A stretch of DNA of 64,000 nt, taken from a phage. Position numbers and translations under genes: made by a program. The stretch lies in the sequence record QB031382.1. The stretch is one strand, 5' to 3'. Within the stretch, counting starts at the first letter, position 1, and every line of letters starts with the position of its first letter. The notes beneath the pieces were generated by a model. The model saw only the letters and a program-made list of their open reading frames with translations. It was not told the origin of the DNA and did no database searches. This document shows, in pieces, positions 4,278 through 36,507 of the stretch.

Positions 4278-6345
4278 ATTTATGGCATCTGCATACAACC
4301 GTTTCGGTGAGCCAAACCCGAAAGCAACTAAGTATAAAAGTGGGGGAAGTGTGAAACGAGACTATCGTGATGAAAAAGAAGTTGAAACTGTAGAGACTGT
4401 TTTAGAAAATACCAAAATTGTCCCCGTCCCACAACAAAATATCGGTCTGATGGCTGCACAATATTTTGGTGTGCGATCAGCATTATCCCAAGAAGATGGT
4501 GTGACAGTCACTGCAACATATTTCCCATATTACGACCGCTACGGAAATCTGTCCGGTTTCAAAAAGCGTGACTGGACGATTCCTAAAGAGCAAAGAGGCC
4601 ATTTCTCCGTTGTTGGCATAGTAAAGGCTAACTCTCAGATGTTTGGTCAAAAGCTGTGTGCATCTTCCAACAACCGTAAGCAGATTAACGTTTGTGAGGG
4701 AGAAGGTGATGTTATTGCAGCATGGCAGGCTGCATATCAGATACAAGTAAAAGGGATTCTCACCAACGCTAAAGCCCCGGCAAAGGTGAAACAGTGGGCT
4801 AAAGAGGTCCAGGACGGGATCGATGCAGTTATCAACGGTGGCGATCTGGCAGGAAAACCATGCCTGCCTTTTGTTGGAATTAACTGTGGATGTGCAAACG
4901 CAGTAGATACTTTTGCAAACAATGAGAAGTTTATCCGTAGCTATGGAACAGTTGTGCTGGCAATGGATAACGATGCAGCTAACGAGGTAGAGAAGCAAAA
5001 ACACGTCATTAAAGGTGTTGAGGCCACGCACAATATCGCAGCATTTTTGATGGCTGATAACGTTTACCACGTGGAATATCCTGGCGAGGTAAACGACCCT
5101 GATGGTGTAAAAGATATCCGTGACATGCTGAAGGCTAAAAAGCTGGAAGATATTGTAAACATGTTCCGGCATCCTGTTAAGTATGTGCCGGATGCTGTGT
5201 CGGATTTAGAAGACTTCTCTATCGAATCTTTGCGGAAAAAGACTTCCAACGGGGTAGATATCAGCGCAGAGTTCCCAAAACTGCAAAAAATGCTGAAAGG
5301 CTTGCACAAAGGGACACTCGTAATGCTTACAGGGCCATCAGGGGGCGGTAAAACAACTGTAGCTAAAAAACTGGAACATTGTATTGCAAGATACTTGATG
5401 GACCCGACATGCCCGAAGGCCGATGACTATGAAGAGGATGATCGTCTATGCATGATCCATCTTGAGGAGGACCCAGAGGAAGCAATTAACTCCTTGTATG
5501 CAAACCAGTTAGGGTTTGATGTTAAAGAGTTTGTTGAAGATCCTAGCCAGTTTTTAACTGATCAAGAACACGCAGAGATTCACCAATCATGGGCAAAAGC
5601 TGGAAAAATCAAAGTGTTCAAACATTTCGGATCTATTCCGGTGGACGAGTTGATTACCAAGCTTAAGCAAATGGTTTGCCTGTACCATTGCCGTTATATT
5701 GTGCTGGATCACCTGTCCATGGTAATTTCAGGGCTTAATGTTAAGGATGAGCGAAAAGAGCTGGACATGGCTATGACCCAACTGGCTGCGTTTTGTAAGC
5801 AGTTTAACGTGTTTATCCTAGTGATCGCTCACCTCAAACGTACAGAGATTGTGCCTCCTAAGGACAAGGATGGTAACCCGTTACCTTTCTGGTATCCTGT
5901 GCGAAAAGAGAATTTGCGAGGATCGGCTGGGCTTGAACAGTTGAGTTGGGTAGTCATAGGTGTTGAGGCTGAAGAAATGGTAGATCGTTCTCGTGGTCGT
6001 GTCCGTTTAGTAGGTCTTAAAAACCGTCCAGCAAAAACATTGGGTATTGCGGATACTTTGGTTATGGACCCACATACAGGTAAGTTCCATGATGCCAGTA
6101 ATTGGTACTGGGACAAAGAAATGCAGATGTTTACAGACGGAGAAGGTGGGGAGGTTGTTTGGAGACCTCAGGCCATGTTTGAGGACCAAGAGCATGCAGT
6201 TGTAGAAACACCTATGGGCAAGGTTGTAGCTGATAAGGTTGTAACTCCTACTATTAAGCCTGTTGACACGCAGGAAGACCTCCAGTACGATGATCCATCT
6301 TCTGATCCGGTCCCCGGTTTTGAAGATGATGAAACACCTTTTTAA
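4267..6345 (+). CDS. bifunctional DNA primase-helicase (TOPRIM + DnaB-like helicase)
   Basis: TOPRIM motifs CEGEGD and LAMDNDAANE; Walker A LTGPSGGGKTT; SD AAGGAG upstream. Confidence 0.8.
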   Translation: MGSKFMASAYNRFGEPNPKATKYKSGGSVKRDYRDEKEVETVETVLENTKIVPVPQQNIGLMAAQYFGVRSALSQEDGVTVTATYFPYYDRYGNLSGFKKRDWTIPKEQRGHFSVVGIVKANSQMFGQKLCASSNNRKQINVCEGEGDVIAAWQAAYQIQVKGILTNAKAPAKVKQWAKEVQDGIDAVINGGDLAGKPCLPFVGINCGCANAVDTFANNEKFIRSYGTVVLAMDNDAANEVEKQKHVIKGVEATHNIAAFLMADNVYHVEYPGEVNDPDGVKDIRDMLKAKKLEDIVNMFRHPVKYVPDAVSDLEDFSIESLRKKTSNGVDISAEFPKLQKMLKGLHKGTLVMLTGPSGGGKTTVAKKLEHCIARYLMDPTCPKADDYEEDDRLCMIHLEEDPEEAINSLYANQLGFDVKEFVEDPSQFLTDQEHAEIHQSWAKAGKIKVFKHFGSIPVDELITKLKQMVCLYHCRYIVLDHLSMVISGLNVKDERKELDMAMTQLAAFCKQFNVFILVIAHLKRTEIVPPKDKDGNPLPFWYPVRKENLRGSAGLEQLSWVVIGVEAEEMVDRSRGRVRLVGLKNRPAKTLGIADTLVMDPHTGKFHDASNWYWDKEMQMFTDGEGGEVVWRPQAMFEDQEHAVVETPMGKVVADKVVTPTIKPVDTQEDLQYDDPSSDPVPGFEDDETPF

Positions 6346-6403: not shown

Positions 6404-8827
6404 ATGAGCATGTGGTCGTTCGATTTTGAGTCATCCGGTTTGCTGGAAGACCCAGATCTTTATTATCACTGCGGTCTGTTTAAAGAGTTGAATAAGAACC
6501 GTTTTATGCTGTTCCTTCCTCTAAATGACCGCACACACTACTCCGAGGAGGATATAGAAAAGGCTAAGAACTTCATTCTGGCAAAGAAAACTCTTTATAA
6601 AGATTTTGAAGTTCGCATAGCAGATTTTTCGGAGTTGGAAGGTTGGCTTACAGGAAATTCTGACTGGTCACCAACAGCTTTGAACTGCCATAACTGCTAC
6701 AGTTATGACTTTATGCTGATGGAAAGATTATCCGGTATTCATTTTGATATGTTCCGTGATCCTAAATGCATGGGGACTATCAACGACCACCAGGTTAACC
6801 TGTTTGATACGTTGGCGATGAGCCGAATCTTATGGCCTGATCGCCCTTTACCAAAAGGTTGTCCTGACTCCGTATTCAACCCGGTTACTAAGAAAATGCA
6901 GCCTGTTGGTCCTCACGGCCTTATGGCATGGGGCTACGCCCTTGGTAACCAGAAAGTTCAAATTGATGACTGGCGCGATCTTCCGTTGTGGAAGTATGTG
7001 GATCGTGTATTCGAGGACGTTATCATCCAGGAGCTGCTCTGGAAAGAGCTGGTAGCGGAATCAAAAGGTGTATTCTACGGCAAATCTGACATGCAGAACT
7101 TTATGTACGATCCTGCCAAAGAGAAGCCGAAAGGGTTCAAGAAGATCACCTGGAAGAACGCATTGCGCCGGGGTATGCTGCAACACTTCCTGATGGAGCT
7201 GCAGGCCCGTCAGGGTGTGTATTTTGACATAGATGGGGCTATTGCTTTACGTGACCGTTGCGATGCGTGGATGAAAGAAATCGCTGATCGTGTTGAACCA
7301 CAACTACCTTTAAAAGAGCTGTCAATGTCTCAGCGGCCCAAGTTCCCTGAAAAGCCGTTTAACCAAGATGGGACAATCTCCAATAATGGTTGGAAATGGT
7401 TAAAAGATAAGCTTGGCTATCCTGTGGACATGAGCGCTTTAGAGTTCAAAGCCCCACCTAAGCGAGCATTTACCTCCACAGGGGATGTCAGTAAGATGGG
7501 GATAAAATGGTGTGAAGAGATGGGCTGTAAAGACCCTGATAAGATGGCTGATTTCTTGAGGGGCTATATTAAGGGCACTTCCACACCACAACCTTTACCT
7601 AAAGAGCTAATGGATCAGGCAATAAGTGATCTACAGCAGAAGCGAATGCCTGACTGCAAGATACCTATGAAAATCAGCAATCAGGACGACATTAAGCGAT
7701 ACCTGATTAGTGCTGGTTGGCTTCCGACAATGTGGAGAACTAAGGATGTAACTAAAGACAGCAAGAAGAAAGCTCTACCTGATGCAGATGTTGATGCACG
7801 AGTATATGCATATATGGACGAGCTTTTAGAGTCAGAGTATTGTGACCTGATTATCAACTTCTGGAACAAAACTGATGCTAAGTTCCAGACAACCGTGCAC
7901 AAGTTCCGAAGCTTTCCTAACTCCGAAAGGATTAAAAAGGAAGTATTCGGGAAAATACGTAGAAAAGCTAGGGCACTTATTACTTCTCCGCAACTGAAAG
8001 ATACGTTTGGACACCTATGCCCTAATCTTGAAAAATTGAACGGAGAGATGGCTAAAGATATCGTCTTGTGGTTATCATTGCGAAACCGCAGATCGGTACT
8101 TGATCCAATTAAGGAGGATAAGGTTGATACTGGTCTTCTTAATCACCCACGTTTGAAGATTGACCATAAGCTTCCTGCTAAAAGTTCTGGGTTAACAAAC
8201 ACTTCCCGACAGAAACACAGTATTTGTGCGAACATGCCTAAACCATCTCCTAAAGTGGTTATGGGTAAAGAGATGCGTAGTCTGTGGGGTGTTCCTCCGG
8301 GATACTTTGAGATCGGTATTGACGGGTCCAACTTAGAGCAGCTTATCGGGGCTTGGGGTGCCTTTGAGTTCGACAACGGCTTGTATTATGATGTTGTAAG
8401 TAACGGGGACGCACACCAAAACAATGCTGAGGCATATACAAAAGTAGCAGGCAGAGAGGTGTCTCGTAACGACGGTAAACCTATCACGTATGGGGTTATG
8501 TACGGGGCACAAAAAGATAAAGTTGCAGACATGCTGGATATCTCTCCAGAGTTGGGGCAAAGGGTAATCGATGCGCTTTGGGATGCCAACCCCGGTCTTA
8601 AGGGGCGTAAAGAGGATCTAGAGAAATTCTGGGAAGCAACAGGTAAGAAATTTATCTACTCTTTTGACGGTCATGCCATTTGGACCCGCTCTAAACACTC
8701 TTTGCTTAATGCATATCAGCAAAATGGCGGTGCCTCGTTGTGCGACTTGGTCGGAATCCTCATGCACCACCAAATGGTGAAGCGTGGATGGTATGATGAG
8801 GGTGTTCGTCGTATTATTTATTACCAT
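6404..8827 (+). CDS. DNA polymerase, family A, exon 1
   Basis: Exo I SFDFESSGL, motif A GIDGSNLEQL, motif B KPITYGVMYG; exon ends at the CAT (His) codon 8825-8827 before the intron. Confidence 0.85.
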
Positions 8828-9155
8828 AAATAACATTGTGGCTTCGTGCAGTGATGCACGTCGAAAACCTCTTTAATTGACGGGAAGGCTAAGTTGACTT
8901 TTACACCTAAACATGGTAAAAGCTCAATATGCTAATCCGCAGCGAAGCATCCGAGAGGATGAACGTTCAGAGACTATCGAAAGCATAGCTCCAACATAGT
9001 TTGGTGTGAAGAAGCGAGTAGAGTAGGCCAGCAAGTGCGGTCGAAATGAGAGGTGCCTTGGTAACAAGGCAGTGAGATAGTCCGATCCATACGGGAAACT
9101 GTATGGCTATGCACGTAATGGTGCGGGGTAGCTTAACGACCTACCTGAACTATTG
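8828..9155 (+). ncRNA. group I self-splicing intron (no ORF) in the DNA polymerase gene
   Basis: Core elements P AATTGACGGGAA (8875-8886), Q AATCCGCAGC (8934-8943), R GTTCAGAGACTA (8965-8976), S GAGATAGTCC (9074-9083); U before 5' splice site pairs with guide GUGG 8838-8841; G9155 precedes 3' splice site. Confidence 0.75.
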
Positions 9156-33422: not shown

Positions 33423-33818
33423 TTACTGAAACAGTGCAGATAAATTACCTTCTGGTGGAAACTTATCTGCCAAGAACGGAGTCAGAACAGTGGCCTTCTG
33501 AAGATCTGGAGTCCACTCGTTGTTCAGAACATCCCAGTAGTACGCAATGTTGCTGTGTGGGTGCCGCATTACGAACTTTTTCCCTTCGTAGTCAGTTGAA
33601 ACCTCTACAGAAGAAATAACAACAGAATCTTCAAGAGTTTCTTCATAGAAAGATCCACCCTCGAATTTCCAACGAGATGCAAGAGCTCCTGCCTTAAACG
33701 CTGCAGATAACGGACTGTCGGCAAGAACATACATTTCTTGCACTCTGTCGCTGCGATCTTTGCTTCTTACGTTGTATACAGTATCTGAGCTATACTCAAC
33801 ACGGTATAGACTTACCAT
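33423..33818 (-). CDS. hypothetical protein, paralogue of 35628-36038
   Basis: Shared motif HPxS..YW....WTP. Confidence 0.5.
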   Translation of the reverse strand: MVSLYRVEYSSDTVYNVRSKDRSDRVQEMYVLADSPLSAAFKAGALASRWKFEGGSFYEETLEDSVVISSVEVSTDYEGKKFVMRHPHSNIAYYWDVLNNEWTPDLQKATVLTPFLADKFPPEGNLSALFQ

Positions 33819-34510: not shown

Positions 34511-34780
34511 TTACTCTTCTACAACCTCATACACATCCGGAGTTACAATCAACTCTTCTCCGTTACCCGGTGCAACAAACACCACCAGACCTTCAGGTGT
34601 GTGCTTTTTAGCCATTTCGATGACATCTTCTCGCAGAGCTGGCTCCATCAGATCAAAACCTTCACCCAGGGCATCACGAACCACCTTCATGTAGTCCACT
34701 GGTTGTGCTTCAACGATCATGCCTTCAACCAGTCCACAGTTTTTGTCTGCCAGCTCAGTTTGGAATAATTTAATTTTCAT
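34511..34780 (-). CDS. hypothetical small acidic protein
   Basis: Tool ORF. Confidence 0.5.
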   Translation of the reverse strand: MKIKLFQTELADKNCGLVEGMIVEAQPVDYMKVVRDALGEGFDLMEPALREDVIEMAKKHTPEGLVVFVAPGNGEELIVTPDVYEVVEE

Positions 34781-34806: not shown

Positions 34807-34908
34807 TTAATAGCCGTAACCTAACACATTAACTACAACTGCGATTGCAAACATAATTTCAAAGCATGCAATCTCTACATTTGGGACTAATTTCTTAATC
34901 ATGCCCAT
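34807..34908 (-). CDS. small hydrophobic peptide (33 aa)
   Basis: Hand-translated MGMIKKLVPNVEIACFEIMFAIAVVVNVLGYGY; SD GAGGTG upstream. Confidence 0.35.
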   Translation of the reverse strand: MGMIKKLVPNVEIACFEIMFAIAVVVNVLGYGY

Positions 34909-34923
34909 TGTAGCACCTCAATC

Positions 34924-35235
34924 TCAAAAGTCAATCTTTACTTTACCTTTTCCCTTACCTTTCTTTCCACCACATTTAGCCAACTGGCGTGCTGCAACAT
35001 CTACCATACGGTCAGTTGCCTCGTAAGCATCACTACCTTTAGCTTTGGCAATGACTTCTTTTCCAGAATTGTCAAAAATGAAAGCCATAACTTCCTGGTG
35101 ATCATTTTCAACTTTTACACTCACACGTGCATAGTTGGCAGAGGGGTGCAAACGCTCCAGCTTAGACATTTTGTGGGAAATGAAAGACACCATACCTTCA
35201 GTGATTTCTACGTTGCCAGTGATTTCAATTTGCAT
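34924..35235 (-). CDS. hpf: ribosome hibernation promoting factor / RaiA family homologue
   Basis: MQIEITGNVEITEGM...KLERL...VSVKVEN...KAKGSDAYEATDRMVDVAARQLAK aligns along its length with remembered E. coli HPF/YfiA; SD GGAG upstream. Confidence 0.7.
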   Translation of the reverse strand: MQIEITGNVEITEGMVSFISHKMSKLERLHPSANYARVSVKVENDHQEVMAFIFDNSGKEVIAKAKGSDAYEATDRMVDVAARQLAKCGGKKGKGKGKVKIDF

Positions 35236-35319
35236 AACGTGCTCCTTTTAAGGAAGAGAGAATAACAACCATCTCTTGAAAACAATAATACTATAGCTGA
35301 AGCGTTGTGTCAACAGTTT

Positions 35320-35627: not shown

Positions 35628-36038
35628 TCAGCTTATCTTTTCTTCAACAACCCCATAGCTTGGGGCAGAGTCAAGAGCTTTCTGGTTTAAAAGTGGTGTA
35701 GCAGAATCTGCAAACGGTGTCCAGGTTTTTGTTCTGGCATTCCAGTAATGCTTCACTCTAGAATCAGGATGCACTATAATAAAAACTTTTTCACTTGTCA
35801 ACACGTTAATTTCTTCCACACCCTTGCTGACAATTTCTCCGTCATAGCCTCCAGTCTGGTATCCTTCGTACCAGGTTCTTGCATAGGCATATCCAGCCTG
35901 CCAGCATGCAGCCTCTTCAGAGGTGGAGACTACGTAGAAGTCTTTCTCAAACTCTGGGATACGCCCTTGCTTTACGCTCCAAGCTCCGCGAATTTTCATT
36001 GTAACTTTAAACAGTTTATTTTTCACAACAGTCCCCAA
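35628..36038 (-). CDS. hypothetical protein, paralogue of 33423-33818
   Basis: Shared motif HPDSRVKHYWNARTKTWTP. Confidence 0.5.
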   Translation of the reverse strand: MGTVVKNKLFKVTMKIRGAWSVKQGRIPEFEKDFYVVSTSEEAACWQAGYAYARTWYEGYQTGGYDGEIVSKGVEEINVLTSEKVFIIVHPDSRVKHYWNARTKTWTPFADSATPLLNQKALDSAPSYGVVEEKIS

Positions 36039-36293
36039 TCACGGCTCTAAAATATCTGCATCTGACCCTACCCCAAAGGCATAATACGAGTCCTCTCCGA
36101 AATAATATTCCGGAGCACCAGCCGCGATCAGGTCTGATCCCAAAATGAACACCACATTGTGGCCTACATAGCTGTGATTTTGCCGCACAGGATCATCCCA
36201 CGGCAACCCTTCGAAGTATACAGCAGGTACTACCTTTCCCTTCAGGAATGATTGTCCCAAGTAGACGTTAGAGTCAAGAATTTTAACCTTCAT
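36039..36293 (-). CDS. hypothetical protein (GxDLxAAGA family)
   Basis: MKVKILDSN...GSDLIAAGA; coupled to neighbours. Confidence 0.5.
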   Translation of the reverse strand: MKVKILDSNVYLGQSFLKGKVVPAVYFEGLPWDDPVRQNHSYVGHNVVFILGSDLIAAGAPEYYFGEDSYYAFGVGSDADILEP

Positions 36294-36507
36294 AATCGTC
36301 CTCCACTATCTCCACATCCTCCCCTAGGGCAAAGTTGTAGGCCCACTGACTGTCAAAGCATTCCTGAGACGCGCCAGCGGCAATAAGATCTGCCCCTTTT
36401 ATTTTTAAAAGGTCAGGATAATCTTCGTTAGGGATAGCGGTAAACACTTTTCCAACTAAAGGCTCTTGACCAATATAGAAGTTTGAATCTAAAACTTTCA
36501 CTTTCAT
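36283..36507 (-). CDS. hypothetical protein (GxDLxAAGA family)
   Basis: MKVKVLDSN...KGADLIAAGA; start overlaps upstream stop. Confidence 0.5.
   Translation of the reverse strand: MKVKVLDSNFYIGQEPLVGKVFTAIPNEDYPDLLKIKGADLIAAGASQECFDSQWAYNFALGEDVEIVEDDYEG

What the first reader, a model, noticed from the sequence alone, without database searches (positions are those of the whole stretch)
34924..35235. Phage-encoded ribosome hibernation factor (HPF/RaiA) homologue
The 103-aa protein aligns along its length with bacterial HPF/YfiA as I remember them (MQ-I-ITGN-VEITE...KLE...V-VKVE...A-G-D-Y-A-D...ARQL-K) and has a Lys/Gly-rich tail. It sits with its own SD among small host-takeover-type genes. 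A phage copy could stall host ribosomes or shield them during infection.
Basis: partly seen in the sequence, partly recalled or inferred. Interest (0 to 1): 0.6.

Follow-up and report, generated by a model that had tools for sequence, protein, structure and literature searches.

The report
Known phage HPF ribosome-factor homologue
The gene is a real phage copy of the bacterial ribosome hibernation factor HPF, but it is the already annotated and published rV5 ORF144 gene, whose function in infection is still untested.

Summary
The 103-aa ORF at 34924..35235 is real and lies on the minus strand. It belongs to the HPF/RaiA (PF02482) family: Pfam gives 48.4 bits against a cut-off of 23.7, and TIGR00741 also passes.

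It is not new. The window is an rV5-like Vequintavirus, and the protein is 100% identical over its 103 residues to rV5 ORF144, annotated as "sigma 54 modulation factor". Mizuno et al. 2019 (PMC6375957) described the gene and expressed it in E. coli.

What I add:
- It sits on the short-HPF branch (40-44% identity to HPF, about 24% to RaiA), with no close bacterial donor.
- It is under strong purifying selection (dN/dS 0.03-0.11).
- It has its own conserved sigma-70 promoter and a Shine-Dalgarno site.
- Both phage lineages have lost the ribosome-contact residues K80, K89 and H55 and carry a disordered polybasic tail (pI about 9, against 6.5 for E. coli HPF).
- The published negative ribosome-binding result is uninformative, because host HPF was also absent from those salt-washed ribosomes.

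The function is unresolved. Competition for the host HPF/RaiA site is the most likely mechanism.

The parts
35285..35313 (-). Sigma-70-type promoter, TTGACA-17 nt-TATTAT, directly upstream of the gene
   Evidence: It matches the consensus at 11 of 12 positions. It corresponds to the promoter P144 annotated in the rV5 record. The divergent orthologous locus L003 has TTGACA-17-(TG)AATTAT at 5949..5977, before its gene at 6001.
35242..35247 (-). Shine-Dalgarno sequence AAGGAG, 6 nt upstream of the ATG
   Evidence: Read directly from the sequence. A ribosome-binding site is annotated at the same place in phage Murica.
34972..35235 (-). [quoted passage not shown]
   Evidence: Pfam PF02482 matches residues 3-88. 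The AF2 model has pLDDT of 87-97 per 10-residue block over residues 1-80, and 80 for residues 81-90. It superposes on 6h4n_x at rmsd 1.1 A and on 4hei_A at rmsd 1.2 A. dN/dS is 0.03-0.11.
34924..34971 (-). Codons 89-103 plus the stop: a Lys/Gly-rich polybasic tail (GGKKGKGKGKVKIDF) predicted to be disordered
   Evidence: pLDDT is below 50 for residues 90-95 and 97-103. Net charge is +5. The tail is basic in the 64%-identical orthologue too (YSKSKGIDKRTAKWDY). It varies among phages: rV5 ends ..KIDFGE, this window has GGA->TGA two codons earlier, and Murica has a 1-nt deletion giving ..GKAK*.

Best explanation
This is the Vequintavirus (rV5-type) orthologue of bacterial short HPF. It is a single S30AE domain with a phage-specific, disordered polybasic tail, and it is transcribed from its own host-type (sigma-70) promoter inside a long block of small genes on the same strand.

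Shown here: family membership, fold, purifying selection, the promoter and SD motifs, and the pattern of retained and lost contact residues.

Inferred: like host HPF and RaiA, it docks in the 30S channel between head and body, overlapping the A/P-site tRNA and mRNA positions of vacant ribosomes. It would use the retained basic residues of helix 1 (K22, K25) and helix 2 (R83, K87). Core binding would be weaker and salt-labile because K80, K89 and H55 (E. coli numbering) are replaced. The flexible Lys/Gly tail would add non-specific rRNA contacts and would project, as the RaiA tail does, toward the RMF site.

The likely net effect is competition with host RaiA/HPF/RMF for idle ribosomes. That would keep them as monomeric, protected and quickly reusable 70S particles, rather than a hard shut-off of translation.
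For: - Homology: Pfam, TIGR and PDB sequence hits.
- Fold: the model and its PDB matches.
- Subfamily: median 40% identity to HPF-type proteins against 24% to RaiA-type. Identity to the phage protein rises with identity to E. coli HPF (r=0.90).
- Selection: dN/dS of 0.03-0.11 over the core among Vequintavirus species, and dN/dS of about 0.085 against the 64%-identical lineage, where dS is saturated.
- Conservation: the gene is present in 118 phage records at 90% identity or more and in a syntenic position in a divergent uncultured lineage.
- Promoter: conserved in both lineages.
- Contact residues, taken from a cryo-EM preprint: K23, K26, R83 and K87 are kept. K80 is replaced by V or T, although it is K in 34/36 HPF-like and 87/87 RaiA-like bacterial sequences. 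K89 is replaced by G or S, and H55 by F, in both phage lineages.
- Charge: pI is 9.0-9.4 against 6.5 (HPF) and 6.2 (RaiA) for the E. coli proteins.
- Tail direction: the RaiA tail is reported to head toward the RMF site.
- Not a strong inhibitor: cells were grown overnight under arabinose induction of the viral gene and reached OD 1.
- Published MS lists: host RaiA is on the washed ribosomes of the two other samples (score 137 in Data 3) and in the crude extract of the viral-HPF cells. It is absent from the washed ribosomes of the viral-HPF cells, even though similarly scoring S14 and S17 are still seen there. This is compatible with displacement of RaiA.
Against: - No ribosome binding has been demonstrated. 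Mizuno et al. found the viral protein in crude extract but not in 70S/100S fractions, and saw no change in 100S.
- Three to four canonical contact residues are lost, which could equally mean loss of ribosome binding.
- The RaiA-displacement reading rests on a single unreplicated presence/absence comparison in shotgun MS.
- The direction taken by the tail on the ribosome is an inference from RaiA, not modelled here.
- Expression timing is inferred from a promoter motif only. I found no transcriptome data.
- Some viable phages (Murica, and probably APECc02 and YN3, whose matches also stop at residue 88) have a truncated tail, so the tail may be dispensable, or those records may carry homopolymer sequencing errors.
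Confidence: 0.55

Rival explanations
1. Canonical hibernation or shut-off factor. The phage protein acts like host HPF: together with RMF it drives 70S ribosomes into inactive 100S dimers, or it otherwise blocks the decoding site strongly enough to stall host translation.
For: It lies on the short-HPF branch rather than the RaiA branch. Its fold is near-identical to E. coli HPF as seen in the 100S particle. Helix-1 and helix-2 basic residues are retained.
Against: Expression in E. coli had no discernible effect on 100S formation, and cultures grew under continuous induction. A general inhibitor made from an early promoter would also block phage translation. The added 15-residue tail resembles in length the RaiA tail, which is reported to head toward the RMF site and is associated with 70S rather than 100S hibernation. 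K80, K89 and H55 are lost.
Confidence: 0.15
2. Exaptation. The HPF fold is retained, but the protein no longer binds the ribosomal decoding site. It instead binds another RNA or a host protein, for example as an inhibitor, using its new basic surface and tail.
For: It was not found in purified ribosomes. The otherwise invariant K80 is lost, along with K89 and H55, in both phage lineages. The pI shifts by about 2.5 units. It fails the HPF and RaiA equivalog cut-offs. No bacterial relative exceeds 45% identity among 1.84 billion representatives. The fold search gave a weak match to T7 Gp1.2, a protein inhibitor of dGTPase (E=2.3e-3, TM about 0.45-0.52).
Against: The published negative is uninformative. 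Host HPF and RMF were in the crude extract but were also absent from all three 500 mM NH4Cl-washed ribosome preparations. K23, K26, R83 and K87 are all conserved across 64%-diverged phage orthologues, and E60 is kept in the window lineage. That is what continued selection for the ribosomal interface would predict. The Gp1.2 similarity is marginal.
Confidence: 0.2
3. Functionless passenger: a host gene picked up by chance and decaying in the phage genome.
For: Nothing beyond the absence of a demonstrated phenotype.
Against: dN/dS is 0.03-0.11. The ORF is intact in 118 phage records and in a lineage that has diverged to 64% protein identity with saturated synonymous sites. A dedicated promoter and SD are conserved.
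Confidence: 0.02

Closest known systems
Escherichia phage rV5 ORF144 (ABI79209), 'sigma 54 modulation factor' / viral HPF of Mizuno et al. 2019 (PMC6375957)
   Same: It is 100% identical over all 103 residues, sits in the same genomic position and has the same upstream promoter, P144. It is the same gene family as in FV3, JES2013, FFH2 and about 115 other Vequintavirus records.
   Different: The window's copy ends at ..KIDF because GGA is TGA, whereas rV5 ends ..KIDFGE (105 aa). There is no other difference in the protein.
E. coli short HPF (YhbH, P0AFX0; PDB 2rql, 4v8h, 6h4n)
   Same: It has the same single-domain fold (rmsd 1.1 A, 42% identity). Its length is similar. K23, K26, E60, R83, K87 and K91 are conserved. 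This is its closest bacterial subfamily.
   Different: It scores 55.9 bits against the 125-bit equivalog cut-off. K80 is V, K89 is G, H55 is F, T53 is F and Q29 is R. Helix 2 ends at residue 88, followed by a 15-residue Lys/Gly tail in place of E. coli's seven-residue HKDKLKQH end. pI is 9.0 against 6.5. It showed no effect on 100S when expressed.
E. coli RaiA / YfiA / protein Y (P0AD49)
   Same: It has the same fold and, presumably, the same 30S site. It has a C-terminal extension beyond helix 2, like the RaiA tail that heads toward the RMF site. RefSeq names the phage protein RaiA.
   Different: Identity is only 23%. NF007654 scores 17.7 bits against a cut-off of 158. The RaiA tail is net acidic (-3) and its sequence is unrelated, while the phage tail is +5.
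Other phage S30AE-fold proteins (Cronobacter phage GAP32 K4F6Q6, Escherichia phage PBECO4 L7TII8; phrog_8990)
   Same: They have the same fold and are encoded by large myoviruses of enterobacteria.
   Different: Identity is only 19-26% and they belong to a separate PHROG (phrog_8990 at E=1.4e-6, against the gene's own phrog_12469 at 7e-70). Mizuno et al. place GAP32 apart from the gammaproteobacterial HPFs in their phylogeny, so these look like independent acquisitions.

Membership tests
HPF/RaiA superfamily (Pfam PF02482 Ribosomal_S30AE; TIGR00741) | Profile score above the curated cut-off | tested here: met
   PF02482 scores 48.4 bits against 23.7 and covers 83 of 88 profile positions. TIGR00741 scores 46.0 against 40.9.
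HPF/RaiA superfamily (Pfam PF02482 Ribosomal_S30AE; TIGR00741) | [quoted passage not shown] | tested here: met
   The AF2 model has pLDDT 85.6 and the right order of elements. The Foldseek top 35 PDB hits are all HPF/RaiA/pY, the best at rmsd 1.1-1.2 A.
HPF/RaiA superfamily (Pfam PF02482 Ribosomal_S30AE; TIGR00741) | Conserved basic track on helices 1 and 2 that contacts 16S rRNA (K23, K26, K80, R83, K87, K91 in E. coli numbering) | tested here: inconclusive
   K23, K26, R83 and K87 are kept in both phage lineages. K80 is lost in both (V or T), although it is K in 121 of 123 bacterial sequences. K91 is kept only in the window lineage.
HPF/RaiA superfamily (Pfam PF02482 Ribosomal_S30AE; TIGR00741) | Binds the 30S subunit at the A/P-site channel of vacant ribosomes | not testable with these tools
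   The one published test was negative. It used a 500 mM NH4Cl wash, after which host HPF and RMF were also undetectable, so it does not decide the question.
Short HPF, gammaproteobacterial equivalog (NCBIfam NF007780) | Equivalog score of at least 125 bits | tested here: not met
   It scores 55.9 bits. Identity to enterobacterial HPFs is 40-44%.
Short HPF, gammaproteobacterial equivalog (NCBIfam NF007780) | Promotes or stabilises RMF-dependent 100S dimers | not testable with these tools
   Published work reports no discernible effect on 100S at the end of exponential phase. It was not tested in stationary phase or in vitro.
RaiA / YfiA equivalog (NCBIfam NF007654) | Equivalog score of at least 158 bits, and a RaiA-type C-terminal tail | tested here: not met
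   It scores 17.7 bits and has 23% identity. A tail is present, but it is Lys/Gly-rich with charge +5 and is unrelated to the net-acidic RaiA tail.
Long HPF (Firmicutes/Thermus type) | C-terminal dimerisation domain after a linker (about 180-190 aa in total) | tested here: not met
   The protein is 103 aa with a single Pfam domain. The residues after 89 are predicted to be disordered.

The most novel reading that the evidence does not exclude
The phage protein is an anti-hibernation decoy. It is an HPF derivative tuned for weak, rapidly reversible occupancy of the 30S decoding channel, through loss of K80, K89 and H55. Its polybasic tail occludes the RMF site. Together these would evict host RaiA/HPF/RMF and prevent 100S formation, so that ribosomes of slow-growing or stationary-phase gut E. 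coli stay protected yet immediately available to phage mRNAs. The disappearance of host RaiA from ribosomes of cells expressing the viral protein would be the first trace of this.
Probability: 0.25. Interest if true: 0.6.

Novelty: already known. Interest (0 to 1): 0.22.

Why it matters
How lytic phages deal with hibernating ribosomes in non-growing hosts is an open and practically relevant question, because phage therapy targets dormant cells. A phage-encoded HPF is one of the few direct handles on it. The existence of this gene has, however, been public since the rV5 genome record, and it was analysed and expressed in 2019.

This work adds three things:
- A sharper hypothesis: specific contact residues are lost and a basic tail is gained.
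- The observation that the gene is strongly constrained in two diverged phage lineages.
- The point that the only negative experiment could not have detected even host HPF.

These make a proper binding and competition test worth doing, but they do not change the classification.

Tried and rejected
- The word-indexed protein search with the phage protein alone returned only phage copies. I had to seed it with E. coli HPF and RaiA to reach bacterial homologues.
- The exhaustive HMMER search of 1.84 billion representatives found no close bacterial donor. There were only 22 hits at E<=1e-3, and the best non-phage hit was 45% identical. A recent host-to-phage transfer is therefore not supported by identity levels, although enterobacterial HPFs are the nearest relatives.
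- Literature searches for functional follow-up on phage HPF or for Vequintavirus transcriptomes found nothing beyond Mizuno 2019 and Mathieu 2020.
- I checked whether a second 'sigma 54 modulation factor' in the region, annotated in some records, is a paralogue. The 89-aa ORF at 34511..34780 has no Pfam hit and no similarity to the HPF gene, so that label is an annotation error.
- I checked whether bacterial HPF/RaiA proteins carry comparable Lys/Gly tails. They do not in the 125 bacterial sequences sampled (including the two E. coli references). Most of the 'basic tails' there look like read-through artefacts.
- None of the seven neighbouring small ORFs that I scanned gave a Pfam assignment.
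- I could not model the protein on the ribosome, because no tool here handles protein-RNA complexes or PDB coordinates.

Full report
**1. The observation**

The window holds an ORF at 34924..35235 on the minus strand, running ATG to TGA and encoding 103 aa: MQIEITGNVEITEGMVSFISHKMSKLERLHPSANYARVSVKVENDHQEVMAFIFDNSGKEVIAKAKGSDAYEATDRMVDVAARQLAKCGGKKGKGKGKVKIDF. The finding gave the right coordinates and length but not the strand. A strong Shine-Dalgarno site (AAGGAG, 35242..35247 on the minus strand) lies 6 nt before the ATG. A near-consensus sigma-70 promoter (TTGACA-17-TATTAT, 35313..35285, 11 of 12 matches) lies just upstream.

**2. Family and fold**

The sequence evidence is as follows.
- Pfam PF02482 (Ribosomal_S30AE) matches residues 3-88 at E=1.7e-12, 48.4 bits against a gathering score of 23.7.
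- NCBIfam TIGR00741 (HPF/YfiA family) passes its cut-off, 46.0 against 40.9.
- The narrower equivalog models do not pass: HPF NF007780 scores 55.9 against 125, and RaiA NF007654 scores 17.7 against 158.
- Against PDB sequences, the best hits are E. coli HPF entries (2rql, 4v8h, 6h4n) at E of about 5e-12 to 2e-11 over residues 1-89.

The structural evidence agrees. An AlphaFold2 model built on a 48-sequence alignment has mean pLDDT 85.6 and the expected order of elements: E2-7, H13-29, E33-43, E46-55, E60-67, H70-88. Residues 90-103 are disordered, with pLDDT below 50. The top 35 Foldseek PDB matches are all HPF/RaiA/pY chains. V. cholerae HPF (4hei) superposes at rmsd 1.2 A, and E. coli HPF in the 100S ribosome (6h4n_x) at rmsd 1.1 A with 42% identity.

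**3. What the window is, and prior knowledge**

The 3-kb surroundings are 94-97% identical to more than 100 Vequintavirus (rV5-like) myovirus genomes; FV3 is 96.7% identical. The protein is 100% identical over its 103 residues to rV5 ORF144 (ABI79209, 'sigma 54 modulation factor'). Other records name it RaiA, 'ribosome hibernation promoting factor' or 'ribosome hibernation factor'. The rV5 record also annotates the promoter, as P144.

Mizuno et al. 2019 (PMC6375957) list HPF in rV5, FV3, JES2013, FFH2, O157 typing phage 14 and GAP32. They place the coliphage proteins among gammaproteobacterial HPFs and propose that viral HPF might compete with the host protein to prevent ribosome dimerisation. 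They also expressed the rV5 protein in E. coli. It was detected in crude extract but not in purified 70S/100S ribosomes, and it had no discernible effect on 100S. Mathieu et al. 2020 (PMC6969025) again note hpf in their five rV5-type isolates. I found no later functional work. The finding is therefore correct but already known.

**4. Subfamily and origin**

Across 123 bacterial homologues that I collected, identity to the window protein has a median of 40% (maximum 44%) for HPF-type sequences and 24% (maximum 29%) for RaiA-type sequences. Identity to the phage protein rises with identity to E. coli HPF (r=0.90), so enterobacterial short HPFs are its nearest relatives. Even so, 42% identity to E. 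coli HPF is hardly more than the 38% between the paralogues E. coli HPF and RaiA.

An exhaustive HMMER search of 1.84 billion cluster representatives found only 22 hits at E<=1e-3. The best non-phage sequence was 45% identical. So there is no close bacterial donor. The gene is either an old acquisition or went through a period of fast change. The RefSeq name 'RaiA' fits less well than 'HPF-like'.

**5. Selection and conservation**

The gene occurs in 118 phage records at 90% protein identity or more. A 64%-identical orthologue (P0004, also 103 aa) lies in a syntenic block of small genes on 125-137 kb contigs from metagenome and read-archive assemblies. These contigs align to Vequintavirus only patchily, over about 28% of a 5-kb stretch at 77-83% identity.

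Nei-Gojobori dN/dS over codons 1-88 is 0.03-0.11 among Vequintavirus species. Against the divergent lineage, dN is 0.26 with synonymous sites saturated. The divergent locus also has TTGACA-17-(TG)AATTAT immediately before its gene. The protein is clearly maintained by selection and has its own host-type promoter. The gene sits in a long same-strand array of small unannotated ORFs, which fits an early region. I found no expression data, so early timing is an inference.

**6. How the protein departs from host HPF**

I used the contact list from a 2025 cryo-EM preprint on Gram-negative hibernating ribosomes (bioRxiv 10.1101/2025.10.07.680626), in E. coli numbering.
- Kept in both phage lineages: K23, K26, R83 and K87.
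- Kept in the window lineage only: E60 and K91.
- Replaced in both lineages: K80 by V or T, K89 by G or S, H55 by F, T53 by F or R, and Q29 by R.

K80 is K in 34 of 36 HPF-like and 87 of 87 RaiA-like bacterial sequences. The two exceptions are long-form proteins that align poorly there.

After helix 2, both phage lineages carry a basic tail of 15 residues, with net charge +5 in the window protein and +3 in P0004. This raises the pI to 9.0-9.4, against 6.5 for E. coli HPF and 6.2 for RaiA. No comparable Lys/Gly tail occurs in the bacterial sample.

The tail is somewhat plastic. rV5 ends ..KIDFGE. The window has a GGA->TGA change two codons earlier, so its protein ends in D-F just as the divergent orthologue ends in D-Y. 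Murica has a 1-nt deletion in the repeat, giving ..GKAK*.

**7. Re-reading the published negative result**

In Mizuno et al., cells were harvested at OD600 of 1 after continuous arabinose induction, and ribosomes were pelleted through 500 mM NH4Cl. Their protein lists show the following.
- Host HPF (P0AFX0) and RMF (P0AFW2) are in the crude extract of the viral-HPF strain (Data 5) but in none of the three washed ribosome preparations (Data 2-4). The assay therefore does not retain even the genuine short HPF, and the absence of the viral protein is uninformative.
- Host RaiA (P0AD49) is present on washed ribosomes from the bS21 sample (score 22.6) and the bL12 sample (score 137, similar to S17 at 139 and S14 at 129). 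It is also in the crude extract of the viral-HPF strain (score 188). It is absent from the complete 71-protein list for washed ribosomes of the viral-HPF strain, where S17 (110) and S14 (101) are still seen.

This is a single presence/absence comparison with no replicate, so it is weak. It is, however, what would be expected if the viral protein had displaced RaiA from the shared site in vivo and was then itself washed off. Growth under continuous induction also argues against a potent translation inhibitor.

**8. Mechanism**

Established knowledge of the family, from my own knowledge of the structural literature and consistent, is this. HPF and RaiA bind vacant ribosomes in the 30S channel, overlapping the mRNA and the A/P-site tRNAs. 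Short HPF works with RMF to form 100S dimers. The RaiA tail runs toward the RMF site, and RaiA stabilises 70S monomers.

My best-supported reading (confidence about 0.55) is that the phage protein still uses this site, binds more weakly through its core, and competes with the host factors. Its tail would add electrostatic affinity and possibly block RMF. The rivals are:
- a canonical 100S-promoting or shut-off role (0.15), disfavoured by the lack of any 100S effect or toxicity;
- exaptation to a non-ribosomal target (0.2), favoured by the lost contacts but disfavoured by conservation of the remaining interface residues;
- a functionless passenger (0.02), refuted by the selection analysis.

**9. 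Verdict**

The observation and the homology interpretation are confirmed. The gene is the known rV5-type phage HPF homologue, so novelty is 'already known'. The function remains open. The residue-level differences and the critique of the only experiment make a proper test more attractive, but the finding itself would not surprise a specialist. Interest is about 0.2.

Noticed in passing
window 8818..9105 (+): There is a group I intron here (Rfam RF00028, 75.6 bits against a gathering score of 50, full-length model match), within the region annotated as DNA polymerase in related phages. Several relatives (I29, APECc02, EmilHeitz, Phage 203) carry about 0.5 kb more at this place, annotated as an HNH homing endonuclease. 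This window and JLBYU08 lack that extra DNA.
   Followed up: partly
window 34511..34780 (-): This 89-aa ORF, two genes downstream of the HPF gene, is labelled 'sigma 54 modulation factor' in several records (nomine, A6-1 and others, propagated from APECc02). It has no Pfam hit and no similarity to the HPF gene (BLASTP E=41), so the label is an annotation error. Conversely, some records label the true HPF gene 'ATP-dependent protease La type I'.
   Followed up: yes
Mizuno et al. 2019 Supplementary Data 2-5 (not window sequence): Host HPF and RMF are absent from all salt-washed ribosome preparations but present in the crude extract. Host RaiA is on the ribosomes of the bS21 and bL12 samples but missing from those of cells expressing the viral HPF. 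This may be a trace of displacement of RaiA by the viral protein. It rests on one unreplicated comparison.
   Followed up: partly
L003/L004/L005, gene at 6001..6312: These are contigs of 44-126 kb from metagenome and read-archive assemblies (the cluster's longest contig is about 137 kb). They carry a 64%-identical HPF orthologue in a syntenic array of small genes, and they align to known Vequintavirus genomes only patchily (about 28% of 5 kb at 77-83% identity). No HPF match at this identity level appeared in the phage genome collection searched. This looks like an uncultured sister lineage of Vequintavirus.
   Followed up: partly
window 33423..33818 and 35628..36038 (-); 36039..36293 and 36283..36507 (-): Two pairs of paralogous small genes flank the HPF gene. 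The 131-aa and 136-aa proteins are 26% identical (E=4e-11). The 84-aa and 74-aa proteins are 41% identical (E=1e-16), and their genes are adjacent and overlap by 11 nt. The three members of these pairs that I scanned have no Pfam family. Many neighbouring ORFs share MK(I/V)K(L/I/V) N-termini.
   Followed up: partly
window 34807..34908 (-): A 33-aa strongly hydrophobic ORF (MGMIKKLVPNVEIACFEIMFAIAVVVNVLGYGY) starts 15 nt after the HPF stop codon and has its own GAGG Shine-Dalgarno site. It is annotated as a hypothetical protein in rV5 (ORF145) and several relatives, but not in FFH2. It may be a small membrane peptide co-transcribed with the HPF gene.
   Followed up: no
phage collection records MG0656xx (e.g. 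C15, C5, D#, A141): Eighteen records named 'Campylobacter phage', with Campylobacter jejuni given as host for most, carry this region. Their HPF proteins are 97-100% identical to those of rV5-type coliphages. The host attribution of these unannotated records looks doubtful.
   Followed up: no
protein P0123: The second-best hit in the exhaustive search is a 1160-aa protein with eight separate stretches matching residues about 35-81 of the phage HPF (E=2.3e-9). This would be an unusual tandem array of S30AE-like segments. Its origin is unknown.
   Followed up: no
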